From the NCBI GenBank assembly GCA_964016885.1, contig OZ024740.1, positions 273,544,001-273,608,000 on the forward strand: 64,000 nucleotides of DNA. The letters run 5' to 3'. Position 1 is the stretch's first letter; every line of letters begins with the position of its first letter. The translations under genes were made by a program, and so were the position numbers. This document shows positions 28,868 through 61,643 of the stretch, in pieces. This DNA comes from Eledone cirrhosa (Eukaryota). A model generated the notes under the pieces. The model was not told the DNA's origin and searched no databases. It saw only the letters and a program-made list of their open reading frames with translations.

Positions 28868-29049
28868 TATACATTCACAACTGCTGAAAACGAACTGATG
28901 TAGGAGCACTAAATCTGGTCAACACGATCTCGATCAGGTTAATTTCCGAACAAATAGATATGCCTACAGTTTTGCTGTAATGGACACTCGTCTTTCTTCC
29001 TGCAAGAGTATCTTGAATGTTGATGTGGTTTCTACTTTGAGGTCAGTGG

Positions 29050-30040
29050 GGATTTCATGTATGGGGCACAAGAATAGGAAACTCTCATTGGACATCGATT
29101 GAAGATCTTACTGTATTGTTGAGGGTAAAGTGCTTATCAATACGGTCTAAGAATTTCTTATCTATATTAGTTTCATATTTAGTGAGAAAGGAGGCCCGAA
29201 CCAGATTATTATTCTTTTTCAATTTTTACTTCTAGGAGGGTGTCTATTTGGCCTGTATTTGATCTGTTCCTGAAATTCAGGATCTCGGAGGGCTTTGGTA
29301 GAGTACGGCGCAATATTTTAAAATCTCGCTCTGCTGGATGATAAGTTCGAGATTCTACGGCTAATGTTGGGTACTAGAATTTTAAAAAACCGTATGTAGG
29401 TGGCATGTTGCTCTGTTGATGTATTTCGGCTCGTTCGGTTTATGACAGAGTTAATGCGTGCCGGTTGGTAGATGTAAGTATAAGATGAAAAAGTTTACAC
29501 TAATGATGTTCATGTCGACTCTAATTTTAAGGCCTAGAATACGAAAGGTATTTATCAGGTCTTTACGGAACTTGTTCATATCGTACCCGCTGCGGTCCTG
29601 GATTAGAGAAAGAGCGTAGTCGCAGAATATACCGATGGTGTAGTCGGGGAATTTCTGTTTAAGCGTATGAAGAATGTATAATCTTACAAGATTGCATATA
29701 TCCGCGCTGTCGTATGACCCTAGAGACATCGAATGGATCATCTGGGTAGGACATTTTTAACAAGGCAGTGTCATTGTTGAATAGAAGTACTTTTCGTGCG
29801 TGGTAAATAAGGTCGAGTTCTTTATTCCTGTACTCTCGAAGGTTCGAGTGATGTCTGCGACCTTGTCTAGTAGTGGATTAGTGATAGATGGGTAATAACC
29901 AGTTGTATCAAAGAGGGTGAACTTAGCTCTGTTTTTCGATGAAATGTTTTTGAACCAGGACATAACCGATGTGGTATTGTTACAGAGTAAAAGGCACATA
30001 TTGTTTATGATACGTGGCATCAAAACGACCACTTTACTGT
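29050..30040 (-). pseudogene. Penelope-like (Naiad-like) reverse transcriptase, decayed
   Basis: VMSWFKNI..K..AKFTLFDTTGYYPSIT; SLGSYDSADICNLVRLYIL; GIFCDYAL (decayed GLYRDDGL); HKPNEPKYIN; TNIDKKFLDRIDKHF. Confidence 0.8.
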
Positions 30041-30161
30041 GTGGACTAGGCGTAGGGATAGGGGATGTGTTTCTATGTAGGGCGGGGATTAGAGAGGTAA
30101 GTCTAGAGCGGGACTCTTAGCTGGTGAAGTCTTGCGCGTGTACATTATATTTTCTAAATGA

Positions 30162-30237
<76 letters not shown>

Positions 30238-30544
30238 TGAAACAAAATGAAAACGAAATTTCATTTCTCACTCTTAGTATGGCACTTACTTAAATGTAAG
30301 TATGCATGTATACGTACATACATATATGTATACAGACGTACAGTAGCATGTACATATATATATATATATATATACATATATACATACATATGCATACAGG
30401 TACACATACATATATGCACGTATCAGTTTAGCGGCGCTTATTATAACGTCGCTTTGTTCGTTTGTAAACAAACTGAACAGCCTGAATTTATGCCATACGG
30501 TGTTAAGGCAACCACGTCACCTTTTTGTTCAACACTGACACAGG

Positions 30545-30589
30545 AACGATGTACCAGTTTCAAGCTTGTTAGCTATCATCAGCACCGTT
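30545..30589 (-). ncRNA. Minimal type I hammerhead ribozyme (inverted copy)
   Basis: aacggtg-CTGATGA-tagctaacaagctt-GAAAC-tg-GTA^catcgtt. Confidence 0.78.
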
Positions 30590-30847
30590 TACCCATCTGC
30601 CAGATGGTTGAACGTTCGAAAGTATATACTTTCCTTATGAAAGTTAACGGCTGAGCAGCCTAATTTGCATAGTAAGTGCCATACTAAGAGTGAGAAATGA
30701 AATTTCGTTTTCATTTTGTTTCAATTTATCGTTTTCGGTATGCCTGACCGATTTAACTCACTCAATATGCAAATTAGGCTGCTCAGCCGTTAATTTTCAT
30801 AAGGAAAGTATATACTTTCGAACGTTCAACTCTCTGGCAGATGGGTA

Positions 30848-30892
30848 AACGGTGCTGATGATAGCTAACAAGCTTGAAACTAGTACATCGTT
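30848..30892 (+). ncRNA. Minimal type I hammerhead ribozyme, GUA site
   Basis: aacggtg-CTGATGA-tagctaacaagctt-GAAAC-ta-GTA^catcgtt; palindromic ACTAGT stem III. Confidence 0.85.
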
Positions 30893-31140
30893 CCTGTGTC
30901 AGTGTTGAACAAAAAGGTGACGTGGTTGCCTTAACACCGTATGGCATAAATTCAGGCTGTTCAGTTTGTTTACAAACGAACAAAGCGACGTTATAATAAG
31001 CGCCGCTAAACTGATACGTGCATATATGTATGTGTACCTGTATGCATATGTATGTATATATGTATATATATATATATATGTGCATGCTACTGTACGTCTG
31101 TATACATATATGTATGTACGTATACATGCATACTTACATT

Positions 31141-31164
<24 letters not shown>

Positions 31165-31173
<9 letters not shown>

Positions 31174-31350
31174 AATGGCTTCTACTGGACTAGAACTGTT
31201 TCATTCGGAGGAAATCATCTGATGATTTCTTCCAAATTAAACCGGGCTAGTCCTGTAGAAGCCATTTCTATATTATATATTTATACTCTGCTATGTATTG
31301 AGTCCCTTACTAACTGTGGTTACCCCCAATTGAACCCGGAATAAACATAT
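31165..31350. mobile_element. Family X mini-element, hairpin form centred at 31220
   Basis: gaaatggcttctac...tcatc-t-gatga...gtagaagccatttc, then tail tactctgctatgtattgagt...actgtggttacc. Confidence 0.8.
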
Positions 31351-34670: not shown

Positions 34671-34775
34671 TATATATATATATATATATAAGCTTTCACC
34701 GTAATTTTTACTAAAGACATTTTTAGCATGATAGTGGGGTTTAGAACCCTCAGAGAAATGGAAAAAGATGAGTAT

Positions 34776-34846
34776 TGATGTACATGGGAGTCGAACCCAC
34801 ATCTTTGGTTATCCAGACCACTGTGCTACCATTACACCAACACATC
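34776..34846 (-). tRNA. tRNA-like sequence (inverted copy), anticodon position GGA
   Basis: Reverse complement of 35218-35288 with one variable-loop difference. Confidence 0.5.
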
Positions 34847-35217
34847 ACCCATCTCCTTCCATTCAAATTTGAAGCTACATTCTTAGCAAGTAAATGACAA
34901 GTAAGTATGTTTTGAAACAGTGAGCGAGTTTGAAATTAGAAATATAACCTTTCACCGTATTTTTTACTAAAGAAATTTTTAGCATGATAGTGGGGTTTAG
35001 AACGCTCAGAGAAATGGAAAAAGATGAGTATTGACGTACATGGGAGTTGAAATAAACAACTTTGGTTATCACACTATCAGGCTAAAAATGTATTTAGTCA
35101 AAGATACGGTGAAAGCTTATATTTCTAATTTCAAACTCGCTCACGGTTTCAAAACATACTTACTTGTCATTTACTTGCTAAGAATGTAGCTTCTAATTTG
35201 AATGGAAGGAGATGGGT

Positions 35218-35288
35218 GATGTGTTGGTGTAATGGTAGCACAGTGGTCTGGATAACCAAAAATGTGGGTTCGACTCCCATGTACATCA
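35218..35288 (+). tRNA. tRNA-like cloverleaf (71 nt), anticodon position GGA, short variable arm; probably a Pol III cassette rather than a decoder
   Basis: Acceptor gatgtgt/gtacatc; D arm gtgt-aatggta-gcac; anticodon arm tggt-ctGGAta-acca; T arm gtggg-ttcgact-cccat; TTTTT at 35298-35302. Confidence 0.55.
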
Positions 35289-35420
35289 ATACTCATCTTT
35301 TTCCATTTCTCTGAGGATTCTAAACCCCACTATCAGGCTAAAAATGTTTTTAGTTAAAAATACGGTGAAAGCTTATATTTATAATTTCAAACTCGCTCAC
35401 TGTTTCAAAACATACTTACT

Positions 35421-35477
<57 letters not shown>

Positions 35478-35481
35478 ATGT

Positions 35482-35661
35482 GTCCCGAGTTCAATAGGGG
35501 GTAACCACAGTATGTAAGGTACTCAATACATAGCAGAGTATACATATTTAATACAGAAATGGCTTCTACAGGACTAGAACTGTTTCATTCCAAGGATAAC
35601 ATCAGGAAAGCCCCTGATGATTTCCTTCGAATGAAACAGTTCTAGTCCTGTAGAAGCCATT

Positions 35662-35670
<9 letters not shown>
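35482..35670. mobile_element. Family X mini-element, hairpin form with back-to-back HHR motifs
   Basis: CTGATGA(35614)-tttccttcgaat-GAAACAG-ttctagtc-CTGTA^gaagc and inverted copy 35562-35610. Confidence 0.82.
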
Positions 35671-35711
<41 letters not shown>

Positions 35712-35804
35712 ATACCTTACTTTGGGGTGTAAAATAAGAGAATATATATATATAGAGAGAGAGAGAGAAAGAGAGAGAAAGGGAATGTGAGATAGAAAAG
35801 GTGG

Positions 35805-40509: not shown

Positions 40510-41434
40510 ATACATATATACATATATATATATATATCCATACATATATATAAAGACACACACATATATATACATATATATATATTTCTATGAACCTCTA
40601 TGCGTGTGAGTGTATGCATTTGTGCATCTAAATATATGTCTACATGCGTTGATACACCTCTCACCATATTTTCGTTGTTTTTTTCTGGGGTCTTCATTGT
40701 TATGTAGTTCTCATTATAAAAAAGTAAGTGACTCATTTATACAAATCACATTTTGTTCTCTAAAAAAAACCTATCTGTCTGCCTTTCTTTCTCTATCTTT
40801 TACCTCTCTCTTTCACCCTCCTCTCTTTCTTGCGCTCTCTCACTCCCACTTCACCACAATCCCCAATATTACCATCATGAACTTCTAAGAGAAAATATTC
40901 CCGTACAGTTTATGAAAGAAAATCTACAACCACCTCCTAACATTTCCTCTCACAATCTCATAACCGCTAGACATTAAAGTTGTGGTAAATTGAGAGCAAA
41001 AAACATGTAACATGTACTCTACTTCATAAATATGTATAAAAAATAGAGGCCAGGGCTGTGTTATTGATCTTAATTTATTAATGTCATTAATTCTTCTTCT
41101 TCTTCTTCTTATTATTATTATTATTATTATTATTATTGAATGCTATGGTTGACGGAGGCTCGGCTCTGTAAGGTATTGTAAATTTTGAACGCTATAACAA
41201 TTGTAAATTGTTTAAAACTTAGACCAACTTGTAGACAAAAACACCCTCCTCCTCGTGAGAGGGGTCTTTCTGCCCGTTATGTGGCCCTTCGGGTTAAATA
41301 ACTGCTTATTGGGGTTTTGTACCCAATATTTATTTTAAACAAAAAACAACATCGCTACGAAAAAGAAATTTCATAGGTCACTCCCACTCATTCCGTCTTC
41401 TTCTTCCTCAATCATCACTACAGCAGAGAGAAGA

Positions 41435-42595
41435 TTGTCTCTCTCCCTCCATTCTTTAAATGTGTCTCTCTCCCTCCCTTCTCTTTCGCAAGCGACGAAA
41501 GAAAAGAAAAGTCTCGTGCAAAGCGTGCAAGGTTTCTCCACGACGACGACGACAGCGACGAAACAGGTGTGCGGGAAATACGAAAACCCAGTTCATTCGT
41601 CTGACGTCAGGAATAATAGCAGTAGCAGTCGTAATAACAACAGCAACAGTGACAATGAAAACAACAGTAGCAGCCGCAACAGCATCACCAGCAGCATAAA
41701 CAACAACAGCATTAGCAGCAGCAACACCAACAACAACCACAGCAACAGCGGCGGAGGCAGTAGTCGTAGTACCTGCAGCAACAACAAAAGTACCAGCAGC
41801 TCTGACGACAACAACAACAACAGCAGCAAAGAAAAACCAATCTCATTTGCAGGTATTGCGAAAAACTTGGAAACAATCCTCATAACAAATGAGGAATTAG
41901 AGGAAGCGAAGAAGATGGTGACAAAGAATGGAGACCGAGCAATCTGCAAGGCAGCGGAAAAGTTTTTCGACACCAAACAGCACTGTACGGTCACGTACCG
42001 TACAGTAAGTACAAAATCCCGTAGGGTGGAAAGAGCCACAGAGGCTCAAATACAAAAAGCCTTGGGGTCTGTGTGGCAGCGGAAAACGCACATCACCCGA
42101 GGCAAAAAATATGCCACCGTAGACGTACTTGTTGCCACACCCCAGGAGGCAAAGGCCCAATCAGTAGTGACCCTAAGGAGCGAGGAAATGGTGTTGGTGC
42201 CCTCCTACTGCGGGCAAAAAATTGTGAGGGTCAAACTGACCCACGTCCCCCCTGGAATGGCCCCTTCTTGGCTGGCCGCGTCTGTCCTCGTCGGAATCGA
42301 GGACAAAACAACTGTACTGCAAGTACAGAAAAAAGTAAGAGAAGATTGGGTCGGCACCTCCATTGAGATGCTAATCCAAACCAACCAGGAGTGCATCGAA
42401 GCTATCCCGGATGTGATAGACTTCGATAACGGCACTCAACTGCCCATAAGTGTTGAGGGAAAACGCCCGAAATGCTTTCGCTGTGGATCGAAAACTCACC
42501 TCAGGGCCTTCTGCAACGAGAAGACTCTGAGAAAGGAGAAAACCCCCTCCTTCCAAAACCGGCTCCACGGCTACCAGCAACAGGACAAGCGGTAA
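41435..42595 (+). CDS. LINE ORF1, gag-like zinc-knuckle protein (start uncertain; C-terminal part continues in another frame to 43454)
   Basis: CFRCGSKTHLRAFC (CX2CX4HX4C); homologous to 47244-48491. Confidence 0.8.
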   Translation: MSLSLHSLNVSLSLPSLSQATKEKKSLVQSVQGFSTTTTTATKQVCGKYENPVHSSDVRNNSSSSRNNNSNSDNENNSSSRNSITSSINNNSISSSNTNNNHSNSGGGSSRSTCSNNKSTSSSDDNNNNSSKEKPISFAGIAKNLETILITNEELEEAKKMVTKNGDRAICKAAEKFFDTKQHCTVTYRTVSTKSRRVERATEAQIQKALGSVWQRKTHITRGKKYATVDVLVATPQEAKAQSVVTLRSEEMVLVPSYCGQKIVRVKLTHVPPGMAPSWLAASVLVGIEDKTTVLQVQKKVREDWVGTSIEMLIQTNQECIEAIPDVIDFDNGTQLPISVEGKRPKCFRCGSKTHLRAFCNEKTLRKEKTPSFQNRLHGYQQQDKR

Positions 42596-43489
42596 CCAGG
42601 AACGATAGGTCCGTGGCACCCATGCCCACGCCAAGGAAATCAAAAACAGCAGCAGCAGTGGAAATATTAACAACAACAACAGCAATATACCAAATGCAGC
42701 TGCAACAGAGACTCCAGTGCAAACATCACCAACAACAACAGGTGAAAGAGTGGAGCTGGTACCCCTCCCCGACCTCACAGAATCAGACATGGAGTGTGAG
42801 GTGGGAGAGGGATGGCAAAAGGTCGTAAGAAGGCACAAACGCAGAAGCAGCGCATCGTCGCCTTTGAAAAGGGAGGAAAGAAATGAGAAAAGGGTAAAGT
42901 CTACTGCAAAGAGACCCACAGCAGCAACACCACCAACACCATCACCGCCCACACTAGCACCACCATCACCACCGGCGACAACCCCACCGCCAACAACACC
43001 TTCAACACCACCACTACAAGCACCAACATCGCAAACACAACAACAAAACACACACACCCAGCAACAACGACAAGAAAATAGCAGAACCACACCCCACCCC
43101 CAGAAAAACAAATGCACGGCAATAAATACACACAACAAGAAACTAATGACTTACATAATTGAACACACAGACATTTCACAACACGACTACATAATACCAG
43201 CACCAATCAAAACGCTAACTAACATAAGACTGCTAAAAATAGCACAGAAACAATACACAAACATTAAAACGAAATTCCCCAACGCAGTTGGTGATTTGAG
43301 GGACCTAGGAGGAACTATCAATCGAAGAGTATATTCAGACATTCTCTTAGAAGAGCCGACGACCAGCCGAAGGGACGATTCAACGGTCCCTTCACCAGAC
43401 GATCAAGTGAAAAGGGATGTAAAAACCATCCCTCCTCTACCAAAAGTACGGTAAGTGGTCTTTCCCATCTTTTCCACTCTATTTTAAAC

Positions 43490-46400
43490 ATGACCTCACT
43501 CAGAATAGGCAGCATAAATGCGCGTGGCTTGGGGTCGTCATGGAAGCAGGGTCACCTGCTCAACGACCTCAGGTCACTAAACATAGATGTAGTGGCCATC
43601 AGCGAGACCAGAATCTCCGAAGCACGGGCCTTCGCACCGATCTTCGGCGGCTACGATGTGTACGCATCTCCCAGCCGTCCTGGATCGGGGGAGGAGTTGC
43701 TGTGCTTTTTCGGAGAGGTTTGGATCTCGCCATACGGGCCATCTTCCTGGACCCAGAGGGTAAGCTGGTGGTGCTGGACGTGACCAGCGGAGACGGGCAA
43801 GCTTTCAGGCTAGTGGCCGTCTATGCCCCGACAGGAGCACGGCGGCCTGATTTCTTCCGGCGTCTGGAGACCTTTCTTGGAACGTCCCGCTCTTTAGTGT
43901 TAGTGGGCGACTGGAACGGGATCTTAGATGCACGCTGGGACTGTGTGGGATTAGCGGATAGGGGTGGAGGGTGCAAGAGCCTCACCAACCTGCTCAGGCG
44001 TTTTGAAATGTCTGACAGGTACCGATTGGATTTCCCGAATGTGCCAATGTGGACTTGGACAAATCGCATAGGGTCATCCAGATCATATCTAGATAGAGTA
44101 TTTTGTAGGGAAATAGATAGGTCTAGCATAGGCTGTCCACAATTCAAGATAGTCAGCTACACGGACCACAAATTCGTGATCTGTGTGCTTGACTTAGATA
44201 GGCTTCATAGACGAGGACCCGGCTACTGTAAGCTAAACGCGTCCTTACCAGCGCGCAAGGCCTACAGAGACCGGATTAGAGAACTAGTTAAGCGGGCGTT
44301 GACGGTGGCCATCGTCAACAAGTGGTGGTTTGTTCTGAAAAGAGCGATTAGAATAGAATCGATTAGGTTTAGTAAGGCTTTAGCAATAGAGAAAAATAGA
44401 GCAGAGGGAGAACTAGTTAGAAAATTAGACGAGGCGCTTAGCAAAGACATTGCGACCGACGTGCTTGATGCGAAATTGGCCCTTGACCAATTCTTCAATA
44501 CAAAGCACGAGTGGCGGAGGCGCGTCGTGGCAACAAAGCCACGATCCGGTCTTTGGTGGACCACGACGGGCGCATGCTACTCGATCCCGGGCAAATGTGT
44601 GAAGCTTTTCAGCGACACTTCGTTCAGCTGTTCGGGGGCAGCGGTGGGGCGGGTCGACGGATGGACTTTAGTGTCTATCTCGACGGACTGCCGCGGCTCT
44701 CGACCACAGAGGCGAAGTGTTGCGAAAAGCCGATAACAGCCGCTGAAGTAAGGGAGGCATTGACTGGCTGCACAAGGGGTAAATCGCCTGGTTTGGATGG
44801 TCTGCCCTATGAACTTTATGTACAGATGCCAGACTTGTTTAGAGGCCTCTTGGCGGACGTCTACTGCAACTGGCAACAGAACGGGAGAATTCCCAGTTCT
44901 GTGAGCCGAGGAGCGGTGGCACTGCTGAGAAAGGATCCGAACAAGGGGGATAACATAGATAATTTCCGGCCCATAACTCTGCTAAACACAGAGTTCAAGA
45001 TTTTGGCCAAGGTGCTAGCAAATAGGTTGGCGCTTGTCGTTGGTGGTCTGGTGGGAGAGGCGCAGACATGCGCCATTCCCGACAGATCCATCCACGACAA
45101 CCTCCACCTCATGCGATACATCGTAGAGAGGGTAGCTAGGGAACCTGGCACGGGTGGGTCCTTGATCAATTTAGATCAGTCGAAAGCTTTCGATAGGGTC
45201 GACCATCGTTACCTAGCGGCAGTCCTGAGGGCGGCTGGCTTTGGGCCCGTCTTTAGAGGCTGGATCGCTGCCATGCACAGCGACATCTGCGCTCGGTCCG
45301 CCAAGGATGTCCCCTCTCGTCCCTCTTGTACGTAGTGACTCTCGAGCCATTACTGCACAAACTGGAGACGTTAAGGGGCATCCCGCGCGAACTAGGATGC
45401 GGAAGAACCGTGTCAGCATATGCGGACGATGTCACCGTAGTGGTGTCGAACGCCAAACACATCGAGGCGATCGGCACTACACTAAGAGAATACGAAGCGG
45501 TGACAGGAGCAATGATCAACCAGGAAAAGTCAGTGGGCCTGCAGCTCGGCACCTGGAGAGGCAGGTCCATGCCGTCCAACAGCATCGCGGACGCTGGACG
45601 GAGGGACCGGTTAAATTGCTAGGGGTCTGGTTCGGTTCGGACCTCCAGACGGACAAAAACTGGGACGAGGTGACGAGCAGGGTGGCTTCTCTCACCCAGA
45701 AATGGGCGGAGAGGAAGCTATCCCTGAAAGGTCGAGCGGAGGTGGCTAACGCGTACATCGCGTCTGTCATCTGCTACCGCCTGACCGTCGTACCTTGTCC
45801 TAAGCCTCGCCTGACTGCGCTGGAGCGTTTGCTCTTTCGCTTTTTGTGGAAGGGACGCGCTCCGATGGTCTGGCGGTCCATCAGTTGTCAACACCCGCTA
45901 CGTGGAGGGCTGGGTATGCCGTGGCTGATGATGCGCAGGCACGCGCTCAGGCTACGACATTTCCACCTCTTCCTCGACGGTGATCAGGTGTGGTCGGCGT
46001 TTGCTAGACACGTATTTCCCCAGCTCGTTTCCTTGACGGAGCTGCAGTCCTGGGTCAAGCGAAGACCGAGAGGGAGCGCCTGGAGACTGGAATGTCTTCA
46101 GGCGCTCACAGCCCTCGACCAATCGGGCAATGTGATCGGTGGAAACTCCACCTCGGCGTTCTATAGAGGATTAGTGGAGGGGAAGAGCGACGACGTACTT
46201 GGGGAAACTCTAGGCGTCGACGAAAATCAACTAGCCAATCTCTTCGGAAGAAATTTCGGGCCAGGGCCTATGGACAACTTCCAGAAATCTCTGGCCTGGC
46301 AGTGCTACCGAGGAGCCTTGCCAGTTCGGGATAAACTCTACAGGCATGGAGGTGCCGTCAGCCGGGCATGTCCGAGATGCGCGCAGGGCGACGAAACCGT

Positions 46401-46787
46401 CCTGCACGCACTCGTCCAGTGTCCGAAAATTGGTGACTTGTGGGTTTATGTCGAACACCTGCTGTCGCGTTTAGGACGGATCCGGCTATCATCTCAGTCC
46501 ATCGTGAGGATTTCCCCGCCCTCCTCCTTTAGCCGGGAAGGGCAGGCAATTTTTATCATCTGGTGGCCATGGCGAAAGAGATAGTATGGTTGACACGTTT
46601 GAAAGGGCTGAAGACGAGCTTTTACCACTTCGGTGATGCTCTGATTGACTTTTTCAAATTTCATATGAAAAGGGTATTGAATCAGAGTAGAGAGGAAAGT
46701 GCTCTCTTCCCAGCATTTTGTTGAAAGATGGGTGAGAGAAGCAAGAATGGCCCGAGTGAATGGGCCTACTTGAGTATATATCTGTAA
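43490..46787 (+). pseudogene. LINE ORF2 (AP endonuclease, reverse transcriptase, C-terminal Cys motif), frameshifted and internally deleted
   Basis: SINARGL, ISET, VYAP, GDWN, YLDR, TDH; KSPGLDG, NFRPITLLNTEFKILAK, DQSKAFDRVDH, AYADD; CPRC..DETVLHALVQC. Confidence 0.92.
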
Positions 46788-47243
46788 ATTAAAGGTGGAA
46801 AACTGGGAGAGGGCTCTTGCCTTGGTGATCAGGGTCATTGTGGCTTTTTACTGGGCTTTCTCCACAAATGTCCCTCCGAAGTCTCCCCCCTATTGGGGAA
46901 TTTTTCATTGTTTTTTTTTTTACACGCAGAAATGCCCATTTGTACCGCCCTGTATTGTCCTGCACTGTCCTTAATGTCTACTTTATGTAAACCCTTGTGG
47001 TTAATAAAGAAATCATAATTATTATTATGTGTGAAGACAGACAAGTCTGCGGGGGAAAAGGTTCTTAGCTTTAAGCTGTTTTAAAGTGTCTTTTTTTGTA
47101 TTTTCTTGTCATTAACGAAACTTAAGGTACACATCTTGATTTAAAGAGAGGGATACCTCTCAATATTCGGGCTTTAAGCCCGAATATTCAGATTTATTTT
47201 TTAAAAACTTCGAAAAAAATCGCTTCCCCACCAAAAGAAAATT

Positions 47244-48491
47244 ATGGAAATTTTCGACCTTGAAACGGTAAACAACGTTCAGGTCAAAAGTTTAAAGGCA
47301 GCCACTGCAGATTTCGCCACGACTACGACGGCTACAGTCATGCCTGTCATCCACTCTACTGAATGTGAAGGCAAAACTAAAAAGCTACCATCACAACCTT
47401 CTGCCATAGCAGCAGTATCATCTGAAAACGACATCACCACCACCGCCACCACCACCACCACCACAACAACAACAACTCAGAGCAATAACGACAAAAACAC
47501 CGACAGCTTCAATGTAAACAAGGATGGCGGTGGCAACAGCAAGAATGACAACAACAATAAGAGCATCAGAAACACCACATTTGCTGCAGCAGCAGCAAAA
47601 ACAAAGCGCTTATTGAATATCGATATTGATATTAGCGATAAAGACGAACAGTTGGCCAAAACGTGGAGGCTAATTAAACGGGAGAAGTCCTGGGCAAACC
47701 TGACCATCCCCGACGAGGCAATAGCGGCCATGCAAAGGAGGACGGTGCTCTTTCGATGTATTTCGGTGCAGACACGAAAAGTGGAACTTGCGAGCCAAGC
47801 AGAGGTAGAGGCTGCTTTGGAGTACATCGGAAGTAACATAGAGTACAAAGCAAGAGGCAAACAGTTCGGTACCATCTCGGTACTGTTCAAAACCGAGGCC
47901 CTCGCTATTAAGCACTCGGTGACCCTCTGCAGAACAGAACGCATTATCATGCATCCGTCCTATATGGGTAAAAGGACAGTGAAGGTACGCATTCCCAGCA
48001 TCCCACCAGGAATGAACATATGGTGGCTGCTGGGATGTGTAATCGAGGAGGGGACAGACACCACCCTCCTGGACATCAAAAGGACAGAGAGAGAGGACTG
48101 GTCCGGAATGGATTTGGAGATTCTTCTCCAAATGAAACCGGAGGATATGAATAACATCCCAGATTTTGCCCGCCTGCAGGACGGGACAACAATCCAACTA
48201 ATGATTGACGGAAGAAGGCCACGCTGCTTCGTTTGCGGGGGTGCAACGCATCTTCAAGCCTTCTGCCCTCAGCGCAAAAATGCAGGGGGTCGCAAACCTC
48301 CTTTGTTGCCAACGCCAGTGTCAGCACGGAAAGCTGCACCACCACCACCACCACCAAAAACAAGATCAACAAAAACACGGACACCAACATCAAAAGCAGC
48401 CGGATCACAACCAACACCAAAACCAATCCAAGGAGAAAACGAGGAAAGCTCTCCCCCTCCCCCTACCCCCCCCCCCCAATTATACACATAG
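47244..48491 (+). CDS. LINE ORF1, gag-like zinc-knuckle protein (frameshifted continuation to about 49195)
   Basis: CFVCGGATHLQAFC; Pro/Thr/Lys-rich tail. Confidence 0.82.
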   Translation: MEIFDLETVNNVQVKSLKAATADFATTTTATVMPVIHSTECEGKTKKLPSQPSAIAAVSSENDITTTATTTTTTTTTTQSNNDKNTDSFNVNKDGGGNSKNDNNNKSIRNTTFAAAAAKTKRLLNIDIDISDKDEQLAKTWRLIKREKSWANLTIPDEAIAAMQRRTVLFRCISVQTRKVELASQAEVEAALEYIGSNIEYKARGKQFGTISVLFKTEALAIKHSVTLCRTERIIMHPSYMGKRTVKVRIPSIPPGMNIWWLLGCVIEEGTDTTLLDIKRTEREDWSGMDLEILLQMKPEDMNNIPDFARLQDGTTIQLMIDGRRPRCFVCGGATHLQAFCPQRKNAGGRKPPLLPTPVSARKAAPPPPPPKTRSTKTRTPTSKAAGSQPTPKPIQGENEESSPPPPTPPPQLYT

Positions 48492-49229
48492 ACAAAAAAA
48501 ATAAACGCACACACAGACACAGAGACACTCACAGACACAGACCCTTTGTCTTCCAGCAGCGAAGATGAAGGAAAACCCAAAAGTGCAAAAAAACAGAGAA
48601 AACTCACAAAAAAAAAGCCCCAACAAAATACAAAAACACACACAACAAAAAATACAGACACCACTAACGCAAACACTTCCCTAATAACATTAGCACCATC
48701 AGCAACATCGACACCACGTCCACAATCCCCGAAACGCAAACAACCTAAACAAACACAAGTACAAATAAACACACAAATACCTGAAATTGCAGACACCACA
48801 CCTACAAAAAACATAGACATACCCGAAACAACACCACCAAAACCATCGCCACCACCTTCACCAAAACGAAAACAAATAAAACCACACCAACAAAATGTTA
48901 AAAACTTCGTGCTTGTCAGAAGGGCCAACGATAAACTGATGGCCCTCTTAGCGCGAAGCGTGGACATTCAAACAGAGGGGGAGATTTTTGAAATGAGCAC
49001 ATTTTGCGTGCCAGAAGATTTGCTTCTAGTCCGAATGTAACTCAATTCCTTCAAAGAAATTCGAGAGAGCTTTCCTCAAGACGTGGGAAACCCGAATGTG
49101 AAACCCATATCAAGACTTTTAAAGGGGTTCCCAAAAGAAACCCCACCAACCATGGAGGTCGAACCACCCGACCTTCACAAGACCCGGGAGGTAAGTAAAC
49201 CTTCCCTCTCTCTCTCTTAGCTTACCAAT

Positions 49230-52200
49230 ATGGCAATATTAAGAGTAGGAAGTTTAAATGTTCGCAGCCTGGGGTCAGCCTGGAAGCAGGGTCGCCTGCT
49301 CAACCACCTCCGGTCGCTGGAAATGGATTGCCGTAAGCGAGACCAGAATTTCCGACACGCGCGCACTAGTCCCCATTTTCGACGACTATCAGATCTTCGC
49401 ATCTGTTATCAGGCCGGGAATGGGGGTGGGGTAGCAGTGCTGTTTAGGAAAGGACTGGATCTCGAGGTAAGGTCGATCTTCCTGGACCCGGACGGTAAGT
49501 TGGTGGTCTTGGATGTGAGCAGTAGCGAAGGTGGTGCCTTTAGACTGCTGGCCGTCTACGCCCCTACAGGGGCCGGACGACCTGACTTCTTTAGGCGCCT
49601 GGAGACCTTTCTGGGTACGTATCGCCCTTTACTGTTAGCGGGGGACTGGAATGGCATCTTAGACGCACGCTGGGATTGTGTGGGAGTAGCCTATAGGAGC
49701 GGGGTGTGCAAAAAGCCTCAAGCACCTACTCAGCCAGTTCCAACTGTCTGACAGGTATCGACTAGATTTCCCCAATGTGCCAGTATGGACATGGACCAAC
49801 CGAATGGGGTCATCTAGATCGTATATAGACAGAATCTTCATTAGGAAAATAGAAAGAAATAGTGTGGGCTGTCCACTTTTTAAAACGGTCGATATTCAGA
49901 TCACAAATTTGTGATCTGTACGGTCGACCTAAGTAAAACGCGTAGGTTAGGACCGGGTTACTGGAAGCTGAACATGTCATTTCCGGCACGTAAGGCTTAC
50001 AGGGACCGAGTCAACAATTTAGTTAAGCAAAAGTTGACTGGGGGGATCATCAGCAACAGATGGTGGAGGGGGGCTCTCAAAAGAGAGATTAGAGTAACTT
50101 CGATAGAGTTCACCAAAGAACTAGCGTTAGAGAAAAATAGAAAGGAGGGGGAGCTGGTAGATAAGTTAGACGAGGCTATTTGTCGTGGCATCGCAACGGA
50201 CGTGATAGCGGCGAGAATGGCATTAGACCATTTCTTCAATGCCAAACACGAGGTTGCATTGTCAGAGCTAAGGCGCGTGCGCTGTGAAACGAGGGAACTA
50301 AAGCTTTTCGATGGGCCCGCGTGGCGGAGGCGCAGCGTGGTAATAAAACCACAATTCGGTCTTTGGCGGACCGAGTCGGACACGAGATAAGCGATTCCAA
50401 GCAGATGTGTGAGGCCTCTCGCCAGCACTTTGCTCGGTTGTTCGGGGAGAGTGGCGAGTCAGAGAGAGTAGCGGGTTTCAGTCCCTACCTTGACGGCTTG
50501 CCGCGCATCTCGACGGTCGACGCTGAGCGCTGCGAAAGGCCGATTACTTCAGCCGAAATTCAGGACGCCCTTGTCGGCTGCATGAGTCACAAGTCACCCG
50601 GTTTGGATGGCCTGCCCTACGAGCTTTGCGTAAATATGCCAGACTTGTTCTCCGAACTCCTCGAAGAACTCTACTGTAACTGGCAGCAGAATGGGAGTAT
50701 TCCCAGTTCTGTGAGCAGGGGAGTGGTGACGCTGATAAGGAAAGACGAGAACAAGAGGGATACATTAGACAACTTCAGGCCCATAACTCTGCTCAACACA
50801 GAGTTTAAGATTTTGGCCAAGGTGTTAGCAAAGAGATTGGCGCTTGTCGTCGAGGATTTGGTTGGGGAGGCGCAAACTTGCGCAATCCCAGCCAGGTCCA
50901 TACACGACAATCTCCACCTCATGCGATACATCATAGAGAGGGTAGGGTGTAAACCTGGCTTCGGTGGGGCACTGATCAATTTAGATCAATCGAAAGCATT
51001 CGATAGGGTCGACCATTGGTATCTGGAGTTTGTCCTCAAAGCAGCTGGCTTCGGCCCTGTCTTTAGAAGCTGGATTGTTGCAATGCACAGCGCCACACGC
51101 TCGGTGGTCAGGGTTAATGGCCACCTCTCGGAACCATTTCGGCTCTCCCGATCGGTCCGTCAAGGGTGCCCTCTCTCTTCCCTTCTGTACGTATTGAATC
51201 TCGAGCCTTTACTGCGGAAGCTGGAGCTGTTGCAGGGCATCCCCGTCGAACCGGGACGTGGAAAGGCAGTGTCGGCTTATGCGGACGACATCACCGTGAT
51301 GGTGTCGAACACCTCAAAAATCGAGATGGTCGGCACCTTATTGAAGGAATATGAAAGGTTGACAGGAGCCAAACTTAACCCGGAAAAGTCGGTTGACTTG
51401 CAGATCGGAACCTGGAGAGGCAAGCCCATGCCGTCCAACAGCGCCTTGGGGCGCTGGACGGACGGACCAGTAAAGTTGCTCGGGGTTTGGTTCGGACTAG
51501 ACCTCCAGGTGGAAAAGAATTGGGACGAGGTAACGAGCAGAGTAGCCAGTCTCACCCAAAAATGGGCTGGGAGGAAGCTATCACTGAAAGGTCGCGCGGA
51601 GGTGGCGAATGCGTACATCGCGTCCGTCATCTACTACCGCCTAACCGTCGTGCATTGCCCCCGTCCGCGCCTCTTCAAGTTGGAACGGCTCCTCTTCAAA
51701 TTCTTGTGGAGGGGATAAGTTCCGTTTGTGAGGCGGTCCATCTGCTGCCAGCACCCTCTACGCGGAGGGCTGGGCATGCCGTGGCTAATGATGCGCAGAC
51801 ATGCGTTGAGGCTTCGACATCTCCAGATATTCTGCCTCAATGGTGAACAGGTGTGGTCGCCGTTTATCAGACGGGCCTTTCCGCAGCTCATTTCTTTGAC
51901 TGAGCTGCAGTCCTGGGTCAAGAAGAGACCGAGACTGGGTGACTGGCACCTGGAAAATTGCCAGGCACTCACTGCCCTCTACCAAGCGGGCAATGCGATC
52001 AGTGGAACTTCCACTCTCGAGTTCTATAGAGGATTAGTGGTGGGCAAGTGCGATGACGCACTCGGAGAAGCTTTGGGCCTCGACGAAGTCGAACTGACCA
52101 GTCTGTACCGGAGGACATTTGAGCCGGGGACGATGGACAATTTCCAGAAATCCCTCGATTGGCAGTGCTACCGGGGGGCACTGCCGGTTCGGGATAAACT

Positions 52201-52647
52201 CTACAGGCACGGAAGTGCTGTCAGACGGACCTGCCCTAGATGCGCACAGAACGACGAAAGCGTTCTGCACGCACTTGTCCAATGTCCGTGCATTACTGAC
52301 TTGTGGAGTTATGTCGAACAGCTACTGTCGCGTGTGGAACGAATCCGGCTATCGGCCGAGTCCATAGTGAAGATCGAGCCGCCACCTTCCTTAGGTCAGG
52401 AAGAGCAGGACATTTTCCTCTGTCTGGTGGCAGTTGCGAAAGAGATTATATGGTGGACCAGGTTGAAAGGACTAAAGACAGACACTTTTCTCATCGGCCA
52501 ATCCCTCATCCACTTCATCAAGTTTCACTGGAAAGGAGGGTGAGGGTGGAGAGAGAAGTGCTGCCCCCCAGTACATTTGCTAAAAGGTGGGTGAATGTGG
52601 CGAGAATGGCTCGTGTGAATGGGCCTACTCTGACCATGCGCCTATAG
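49230..52647 (+). pseudogene. LINE ORF2 (APE, RT, Cys motif) with frameshifts and a stop
   Basis: SLNVRSL, VYAP, GDWN, PGYWKLN, KSPGLDG, RSVRQGCPLS, AYADD, CPRC..DESVLHALVQC. Confidence 0.93.
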
Positions 52648-61107: not shown

Positions 61108-61594
61108 TATACATATATATATATATAAATATATATATAAATATATATATACATAAATATATATATATATATATATATATAAATATATACATAAATATAT
61201 ATATATATATATAAATATATACATAAATATACATACATATATATATATATATATACATATATAGATAAATATATATACATATATATATATATATAAATAT
61301 ATACATAAATACATATATATATTTTTATATATATATATATAAATATATAAAGTCTGAAGAATTGTTAAAGACAGTTGTTTGTGTTGCGATGAGAGGAGAA
61401 GGAGGAGGCGTTAAGAATGCTCGAGAGTGAGAACGTAGGAGGGATAGTGGCAGGATAAGAAGGCATTTGCAATTAACGTTACTCAAGCTTCGTATAACTT
61501 ATATTAATAGAAAAAAGTATCTGTAACAAAATAACGAACACAAGCGAAAATCACCAATATATATATATATATATATATATATTTTATAGAAGGA

Positions 61595-61643
61595 GCTTCT
61601 ACAGGACTAGTACTGTTTCATTCAGATGAAATCTTCAGGAAGC
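61595..61643 (-). ncRNA. Type I hammerhead ribozyme, GUA site
   Basis: gcttc-CTGAAGA-tttcatctgaat-GAAACAG-tactagtc-CTGTA^gaagc. Confidence 0.82.

What the first reader, a model, noticed from the sequence alone, without database searches (positions are those of the whole stretch)
30233..31143. Circular permutation within a single insertion
The left arm reads (A-B) inverted and the right arm reads B-C-A. Both the A-to-B and C-to-A junctions are present, which closes an about 470-nt circle A-B-C. A carries an intact minimal HHR with palindromic ACTAGT, and the unit contains its own TA-rich tract. This is sequence-level evidence for a circular or multimeric template.
Basis: partly seen in the sequence, partly recalled or inferred. 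Interest (0 to 1): 0.72.

Follow-up and report, generated by a model that had tools for sequence, protein, structure and literature searches.

The report
Two-armed retrozyme insertion, Penelope-style
This is one of thousands of copies of a 472-base, protein-free repeat with a predicted self-cutting RNA motif, inserted as two back-to-back arms, and marks shared by the repeat units of sister copies suggest that a borrowed Penelope-type enzyme likely copied a small RNA circle into DNA from both sides of a chromosome cut.

Summary
The anatomy is real: left arm 30232-30670 = (A-B) inverted; right arm 30671-31142 = B-C-A, one whole 472-nt unit. It is not peculiar to this locus. The unit is a high-copy tandem family (10,756 exact hammerhead-core matches), and all three junctions are its normal head-to-tail joints. 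Permutation points are not free: arms end at two fixed sites 59 nt apart, and 37 of 37 classifiable two-armed copies not picked by their ends pair one of each, head-to-head, in (TA)n. This is the known Penelope inverted-copy-plus-tail footprint on a non-LTR retrozyme. Neither arm here fits inside the other, so fold-back copying fails; later inversion is unlikely (68 head-to-head, 3 tail-to-tail). This locus alone cannot tell circle from linear multimer. The family favours a monomer circle: variants fixed in every unit of an insertion are mostly sense-strand A>G (17 of 29, against 27 of 373 single-unit variants), as RNA editing would leave. Seven of 53 arrays are not star-like. No RNA data, no partner enzyme found. 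The scan reported this footprint before, probably for this family too.

The parts
30162..30231 (.). (TA)n target tract, left side
   Evidence: site II end runs into it
30232..30290 (-). Left arm, segment B = 59-nt 'tail'; its 3' end (site II) at about 30232
   Evidence: 100% inverted match to 30671-30729; 860 exact site-II-to-(TA)n ends in the genome
30291..30670 (-). Left arm, segment A (unit 97-472), 5'-truncated at 30670
   Evidence: 5 substitutions and a 4-nt TA indel against the right arm
30545..30589 (-). Type I hammerhead, left copy, helix III reads ACTGGT (palindrome broken); predicted cut between 30552 and 30551
   Evidence: cut site from the hammerhead consensus, not assayed
30670..30671 (.). 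Head-to-head (5'-to-5') junction, A97 inverted joined to B1; 1 nt exact and 6-of-8 imperfect overlap
   Evidence: 30-nt junction occurs once in the genome at up to 1 mismatch
30671..30729 (+). Right arm, segment B (unit 1-59)
30676..30684 (+). 5' strand of a predicted long-range helix with 30939-30947
   Evidence: circular fold; pair 11-272 is A-U in 53, G-C in 30, G-U in 4, A-C in 1 of 88 insertions
30730..30766 (+). Segment C (unit 60-96), present once in this insertion
   Evidence: B>C and C>A are native junctions
30767..31142 (+). Right arm, segment A (unit 97-472); its 3' end (site I, no tail) at about 31139-31142
   Evidence: 301 exact matches of one site-I-to-(TA)n pattern in the genome
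30848..30892 (+). Type I hammerhead, right copy: helix I 7 bp, helix II 4 bp, helix III 2 bp with ACTAGT; predicted cut after 30885
   Evidence: helix I pair 182-218 is G-U in 88, U-G in 8, A-U in 5, A-C in 1 of 102 insertions
31020..31142 (+). TA-rich long hairpin inside the unit (variable-length tract about 31056-31079); 7 of the 12 editing-like sites of the family map here
31143..31171 (.). (TA)n target tract, right side

Best explanation
This is a head-to-head, two-armed copy of a high-copy 472-nt non-coding hammerhead repeat in a (TA)n tract, likely written by a Penelope-type (PLE) reverse transcriptase-endonuclease acting in trans on a monomeric RNA circle. Shown in sequence: tandem unit, two fixed 3' ends 59 nt apart, one of each per insertion, variable 5' ends, (TA)n targets, arms from one haplotype. 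Inferred steps: (1) arrays are transcribed, cut by the hammerheads (probably as dimers through ACUAGU) and ligated to 472-nt circles; (2) the PLE enzyme nicks both strands of (TA)n; (3) each nick primes a cDNA, one at site I (unit end) and one at site II (59 nt downstream); (4) both run round the same circle for independent lengths; (5) the truncated ends are joined, often by microhomology. Here the site-I cDNA made exactly one lap (B-C-A) and the site-II cDNA made 435 nt (A-B), which gives the apparent permutation.
For: Family: 10,756 exact core matches, 0 in the reversed control; 6,203 exact A>B junctions; arrays of 1 to 15 units in one arm. Ends: 54 of 54 classifiable two-armed copies pair site I with site II, 37 of 37 without the 17 from the set partly picked by their ends; 14 of 68 had an unclassifiable end. 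Same template: arms differ at 35 of 1,258 diagnostic site comparisons in 34 pairs, against about 274 for foreign arms. Independent extension: arm lengths uncorrelated (rho -0.15, p 0.29); 11 of 54 non-nested against 12.8 +/- 2.6 by permutation. Not a ribozyme-cut linear monomer: 133 of 171 arms read through the cut site, 4 of 171 stop within 10 nt of it (most loci were picked by the core motif), and the cut site shows no excess variation (10 of 2,019 against 355 of 63,760 calls). Monomer bottleneck: 46 of 53 insertions with 3 or more overlapping units have no partly shared variant. Variants fixed in all units are sense A>G in 17 of 29 against 27 of 373 singletons (Fisher p 4e-11), 11 of 16 for those fixed across both arms. 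Collapsed to sites: 12 of 24 (p 2e-7); 5' neighbour U in 9 of 12 against 37 of 117, G in none. That ADAR prefers a 5' U is recalled. 8 of 108 arm 5' ends stop within 5 nt of site I, 2.3 expected (p 0.003), this right arm among them. Known biology: a PLE protein cuts and extends both strands and starts at two adjacent internal sites that bound the tail (PMC11167929); circles as templates for tandem cDNA were proposed in PMC7229834 and PMC4209133.
Against: No autonomous PLE sharing the unit's ends was found in about 430 kb of flanks or 30 GIY-YIG loci. Seven of 53 insertions show variants shared by a subset of units: L087 repeats an ordered motif (C194T unit followed by a 458-nt unit) in both arms, L088 has six adjacent A308G units, L082 and L049 are hierarchical. 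These need a multimeric template or later DNA-level duplication and conversion. A>G against T>C is only p 0.045 after collapsing to sites (12 vs 4), and repeated sites may be inherited. In PMC11167929 ribozyme cleavage was not needed for insertion in vitro and unprocessed RNA was the main substrate. The hammerhead lacks the usual G-C pair at the base of helix II, and its full fold costs 7.6 kcal/mol in the circle. This insertion's own arms share no private variant.
Confidence: 0.7

Rival explanations
1. Same two-ended PLE priming, but on an uncleaved linear multimeric transcript of a genomic array; no circle.
For: Explains everything seen at this single locus. L087 shares an ordered unit motif between arms. 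Unprocessed RNA was the dominant substrate for a PLE protein in vitro (PMC11167929).
Against: One edited A would not appear in every unit of both arms (6 of 6 in L074, 7 of 7 in L081, 5 of 5 in L094). None of the cross-arm shared variants is in register where rank could be read (L081, L083, L087; L049 runs off its locus). Copies could only shorten over generations, yet a 13-unit insertion with one variant exists (L096).
Confidence: 0.18
2. Arms are inserted at about monomer length and arrays grow later by DNA-level duplication through the repeated B segment (the route favoured in bioRxiv 10.64898/2026.07.22.740005).
For: 7 of 53 arrays are hierarchical or show runs of shared variants. It would also fix a template edit in all units.
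Against: 46 of 53 are star-like. Long arrays such as L095, L096 and L102 are identical or nearly so to one another, so length was present when the subfamily was young. Singletons are strand-biased (T>C 54, A>G 27; p 0.005), which fits errors made per unit at an RNA-templated step better than DNA duplication (inference). This window's arms already need more than one unit of template.
Confidence: 0.08
3. Fold-back self-priming: one cDNA snaps back and copies itself (proposed for PLE inversions in PMC3846280).
For: Junction overlap exceeds chance: mean 3.3 nt in the 45 of 68 junctions without inserted bases, against 1.3. 43 of 54 pairs are formally nested.
Against: 11 of 54 pairs, this one included, have neither arm inside the other, which is the number expected for independent arms; only 4 of 54 have near-equal lengths. 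L015's arms do not overlap at all.
Confidence: 0.02
4. A later local inversion, or an assembly fold-back artefact.
For: No listed contig of four public runs bridged the central junction, though those runs need not be this individual.
Against: 68 head-to-head against 3 tail-to-tail pairs and strict I+II end pairing. The arms differ at 5 sites plus an indel and contain different segments, unlike a read fold-back.
Confidence: 0.02

Closest known systems
Metazoan non-LTR retrozymes (coral, mussel, axolotl; PMC7229834, passages and Discussion read; bioRxiv 10.64898/2026.07.22.740005, parts 1-3 of 5 read)
   Same: Non-coding low-GC tandem units, one type I hammerhead per unit, structured predicted circle, thousands of copies, PLEs proposed as the mobiliser.
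   Different: 472 nt (170-400 nt in PMC7229834; 51-972 bp in the preprint). The parts I read describe no two-armed insertions, fixed ends or (TA)n targeting. Circles were shown there by experiment and are only inferred here.
Insertion units of endonuclease-bearing Penelope-like elements, incl. the (TA)n-targeting Hydra and Naiad clades and non-autonomous Chlamys such as MRC1 (PMC8557442, passages and section 11; PMC3846280, passages)
   Same: Inverted 5'-truncated copy joined head-to-head, tail on one end only, partial tandems, microsatellite targets, hammerhead in the repeat.
   Different: No RT or endonuclease ORF. Tail 59 nt, not 30-40. The papers call the tail optional or often one-sided; here the one-of-each rule held in every classifiable pair. 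No pLTR homolog found.
Poseidon PLE of Anolis, in vitro (PMC11167929, parts 1-2 of 4 read)
   Same: Two adjacent internal start sites bounding the tail; both target strands cut and extended; AT-rich target; predicted dimer.
   Different: Autonomous and linear template; no strand preference of start site was seen there, whereas here each insertion uses each site once.
L1 twin priming (PMC2837659, passages)
   Same: Two primers from the two target strands on one RNA give inverted, 5'-joined pieces.
   Different: No poly(A). The second site is fixed and downstream of the first, and the arms overlap (435 nt here) instead of leaving an internal deletion.

Membership tests
Non-LTR retrozyme | Head-to-tail tandem units of a few hundred nt | tested here: met
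   472-nt period, arrays of 1-15 units per arm
Non-LTR retrozyme | One type I hammerhead per unit | tested here: met
   Core intact in 300 of 346 motif copies in the loci held, overlaps counted twice; helix I covariation; no Rfam hit
Non-LTR retrozyme | Non-coding, GC under 45% | tested here: met
   157 G+C of 412 scored positions, 38%; the only frames of 110 aa or more are antisense and run through the TA tract
Non-LTR retrozyme | Self-cleavage of the transcript | not testable with these tools
   needs an assay
Non-LTR retrozyme | Accumulates as circular RNA | tested here: inconclusive
   No RNA run available; indirect support from insertion-fixed A>G variants
Autonomous Penelope-like element | ORF with telomerase-like RT and GIY-YIG endonuclease | tested here: not met
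   None in the unit; not filed as an autonomous PLE
PLE-mobilised insertion | Inverted 5'-truncated copy joined head-to-head | tested here: met
   68 head-to-head, 3 tail-to-tail in 94 loci; 36 two-armed copies and 25 solo arms in the 54 motif-picked loci
PLE-mobilised insertion | Tail on one end of the insertion | tested here: met
   59-nt B on exactly one arm in 54 of 54 classifiable pairs; longer than the published 30-40 nt
PLE-mobilised insertion | AT-rich or (TA)n target | tested here: met
   flanks
PLE-mobilised insertion | Target-site duplication | tested here: inconclusive
   Target is a microsatellite; no empty site seen
PLE-mobilised insertion | Sequence shared with the pLTR of an autonomous partner | tested here: inconclusive
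   None in about 430 kb of flanks and 30 of 150 scored GIY-YIG loci out of 10,597 candidates
min-HHR of PLE pLTRs (PMC4209133) | Helix II 7-8 bp, helix I 4-5 bp, little or no helix III | tested here: not met
   Helix I 7, helix II 4, helix III 2 bp: the canonical metazoan type I layout
Canonical metazoan type I HHR | G10.1-C11.1 pair and loop 1-loop 2 tertiary contact | tested here: inconclusive
   Base of helix II is U-U then A-U, as noted for axolotl HHR_Amex2; tertiary contact not tested
L1 twin priming | Poly(A) tail; two non-overlapping pieces with an internal deletion | tested here: not met
   No poly(A); arms overlap. Works alike, not a member

The most novel reading that the evidence does not exclude
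Each two-armed copy is a fossil of one RNA circle read by two reverse transcriptases at once: a PLE dimer loads asymmetrically on two fixed sites of one edited circular RNA and rolls round it from both target strands, writing A-to-I edits into germline DNA unit after unit. That would be genomic proof of rolling-circle reverse transcription of an animal circular RNA, the mechanism behind PLE inverted repeats and tails, and a route by which RNA editing drives the evolution of a mobile element.
Probability: 0.45. Interest if true: 0.75.

Novelty: new member of a known kind. Interest (0 to 1): 0.5.

Why it matters
The element class and the insertion shape are each known. How PLEs make inverted arms and one-sided tails is called undefined in PMC8557442, and circular retrozyme RNA as the reverse-transcription template is proposed, not shown, in PMC7229834. 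A family with about 10,000 near-identical units, two mapped start sites, a strict end rule and editing-like marks makes both questions testable by genome-wide counting and by a defined in vitro substrate. I found no paper reporting the end rule or the editing marks; subscription papers and the preprint's supplements were not searchable. The scan itself has noted both before. The single locus adds little beyond being a clean non-nested example.

Tried and rejected
RNA: no RNA holder listed; six runs of unknown kind, contigs only. Laying four of them showed the unit and its subfamily variants but cannot show ends or circles. Junction check: no listed contig bridged 30670/30671 in four runs; uninformative, since pieces were short and the individual may differ. 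Partner search: low-stringency BLAST of the unit against masked flanks, hammerhead scans downstream of PLE endonucleases, and 30 GIY-YIG loci found only another family copy. A DNA search with B+C returned nothing because common words are skipped. An ORF between repeats 2.5 kb apart (L003/L005) was suspected and not found. Site 162 looked like a unit-position marker but was an artefact of how the first loci were picked. Site 470 variation is the priming junction, not a unit variant. A pile-up of 5' ends at the ribozyme cut was looked for and not found. Counts use narrow exact patterns and cannot be compared with each other. The fold z-score (-6.9, 60 shuffles) is inflated by the TA palindrome and was not used as support. 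Plain folding did not give the full hammerhead. Twelve loci were dropped before the counts: eleven as duplicates or re-fetches, and L084, whose arrays are broken by long TA expansions and assembly-like repeats.

Full report
Observation. The region sits between (TA)n tracts. Self-alignment gives two nested inversions. B (30671-30729) is an exact inverted copy of 30232-30290. A (30767-31142) matches 30291-30670 with 5 substitutions and a 4-nt TA indel. C (30730-30766) is single. So the left arm is (A-B) inverted, the right arm is B-C-A, and the unit closes at 472 nt. A type I hammerhead motif lies in A on both arms; only the right copy has the ACTAGT palindrome. Rfam does not detect it.

Family. 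The window lies in a 3.0-Gb genome, probably a cephalopod; that is my inference and the wording of earlier notes, not tested. The 28-nt ribozyme core has 10,756 exact matches and none in the reversed control; the A>B junction has 6,203. I held 106 family loci: 26 from a DNA search, 54 covering the first 100 listed core matches on contig C1 plus 6 extensions, and 20 young arrays, 13 of them picked because both end types were listed. Other copies are head-to-tail arrays of the same B-C-A unit, so all three junctions are native. The unit is non-coding and 38% GC outside the TA tract. Helix I of the hammerhead and a long-range helix keep pairing across subfamilies; of the common alternative pair types in the predicted circular fold, 11 keep pairing (3 compensatory) and 7 break it.

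Ends. In 94 loci after dropping 12 there are 68 head-to-head pairs and 3 tail-to-tail neighbours. The 3' ends fall at two sites, the end of A (site I) and the end of B (site II), both running into (TA)n. All 54 pairs with two classifiable ends have one of each; 37 of 37 without the end-selected set; 14 pairs had an unclassifiable end. The 5' ends scatter. This is the published PLE structure: an inverted truncated copy, and a tail on one end (PMC8557442, PMC3846280). In vitro, a PLE protein cuts and extends both strands and starts at two adjacent internal sites that bound the tail (PMC11167929). B is therefore best read as the tail, and sites I and II as start sites. The 'permutation' in the window is what results when a site-I arm of one unit meets a site-II arm shorter than one unit.

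How the two arms arise. They share a haplotype: 35 differences in 1,258 diagnostic comparisons against about 274 expected. They are not copies of each other: 11 of 54 pairs, this one included, are non-nested, as many as independent arms would give (12.8), and lengths do not correlate. Junction overlaps are longer than chance in the 45 of 68 junctions without inserted bases. This rejects fold-back for this locus and favours two priming events, like L1 twin priming (PMC2837659) but at fixed sites.

Circle or multimer. The locus cannot decide. Its arms share no private variant, and its one hint is that the right arm is exactly one unit long; 8 of 108 arm ends stop that close to site I, 2.3 expected. 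The family says more. Arms read through the ribozyme cut without scars. 46 of 53 multi-unit insertions are star-like. An earlier scan note suggested editing marks, so I tested it: among 89 insertions with two or more overlapping units, variants fixed in all units and rare elsewhere are A>G on the ribozyme strand in 17 of 29 cases (15 insertions), against 27 of 373 single-unit variants. At site level it is 12 of 24, mostly after U, and 7 of 12 in the long hairpin that holds 15 of 117 scored adenines. One edited molecule copied into every unit of both arms implies a monomer template read repeatedly. Against this: A>G versus T>C is marginal at site level (p 0.045), 7 of 53 arrays show subset sharing, L087 repeats an ordered motif in both arms, and monomer insertion followed by DNA duplication could also fix an edit.

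What is missing. No RNA data, no activity assay, no partner element. PLE families with the Hydra-type CxCX5C linker, a clade reported to insert in (TA)n, are common beside these copies and are my candidate mobilisers, without sequence proof. No contig was seen to bridge the central junction; the junction is unique in the assembly, and the family-wide pattern makes misassembly unlikely.

Papers. PMC7229834: passages and Discussion. bioRxiv 10.64898/2026.07.22.740005: parts 1-3 of 5, supplements closed. PMC11167929: parts 1-2 of 4. PMC8557442: passages and section 11. PMC3846280, PMC4209133, PMC2837659: passages. Supplements were not read and may list cephalopod families.

Verdict. A real feature and a new member of a known kind: a non-LTR retrozyme with a PLE insertion footprint. 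The family-level end rule and editing-like marks carry the interest. I found them in no paper searched, but the scan has reported both before.

Noticed in passing
L030:6000-7400; L023:1-900: A second, unrelated tandem family of roughly 300 nt with its own type I hammerhead, head-to-head next to (TA)n in L030, units apparently identical.
   Followed up: partly
window 34681-35421: Head-to-head pair (87% over about 700 nt) of a tRNA-headed element with a roughly 170-nt repeat; two tRNA-like hits at 34776-34846 (-) and 35218-35288 (+). May be another PLE-style insertion.
   Followed up: partly
window 28900-30150 (-): Decayed PLE reverse-transcriptase and linker fragment with many stops and frameshifts, Hydra-like by eye, abutting the left TA tract; no Pfam hit for the piece tested.
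   Followed up: partly
window 31155-31285: Small fold-back element beside the right TA tract, with related copies at 35616-35715 and 61558-61636.
   Followed up: no
L087, L088, L082, L049: Arrays with ordered or hierarchical shared variants; L049 shares five variants within unit 210-285 between one unit of each arm, which looks like a conversion tract.
   Followed up: partly
L083: One unit of a different subfamily haplotype sits inside an array: template switch, conversion or nested insertion.
   Followed up: no
family-wide: Single-unit variants are biased to sense T>C (54 against 27 A>G); unexplained, possibly reverse-transcriptase G-opposite-U errors.
   Followed up: partly
L029, L030, L031, L035: A Hydra-linker PLE family with a long 3' region ending at two alternative points and no hammerhead found by my scan within 1.8 kb.
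   Followed up: partly
window 41339-52540: Two LINE-like elements with long ORF1 and endonuclease/RT frames in pieces.
   Followed up: no
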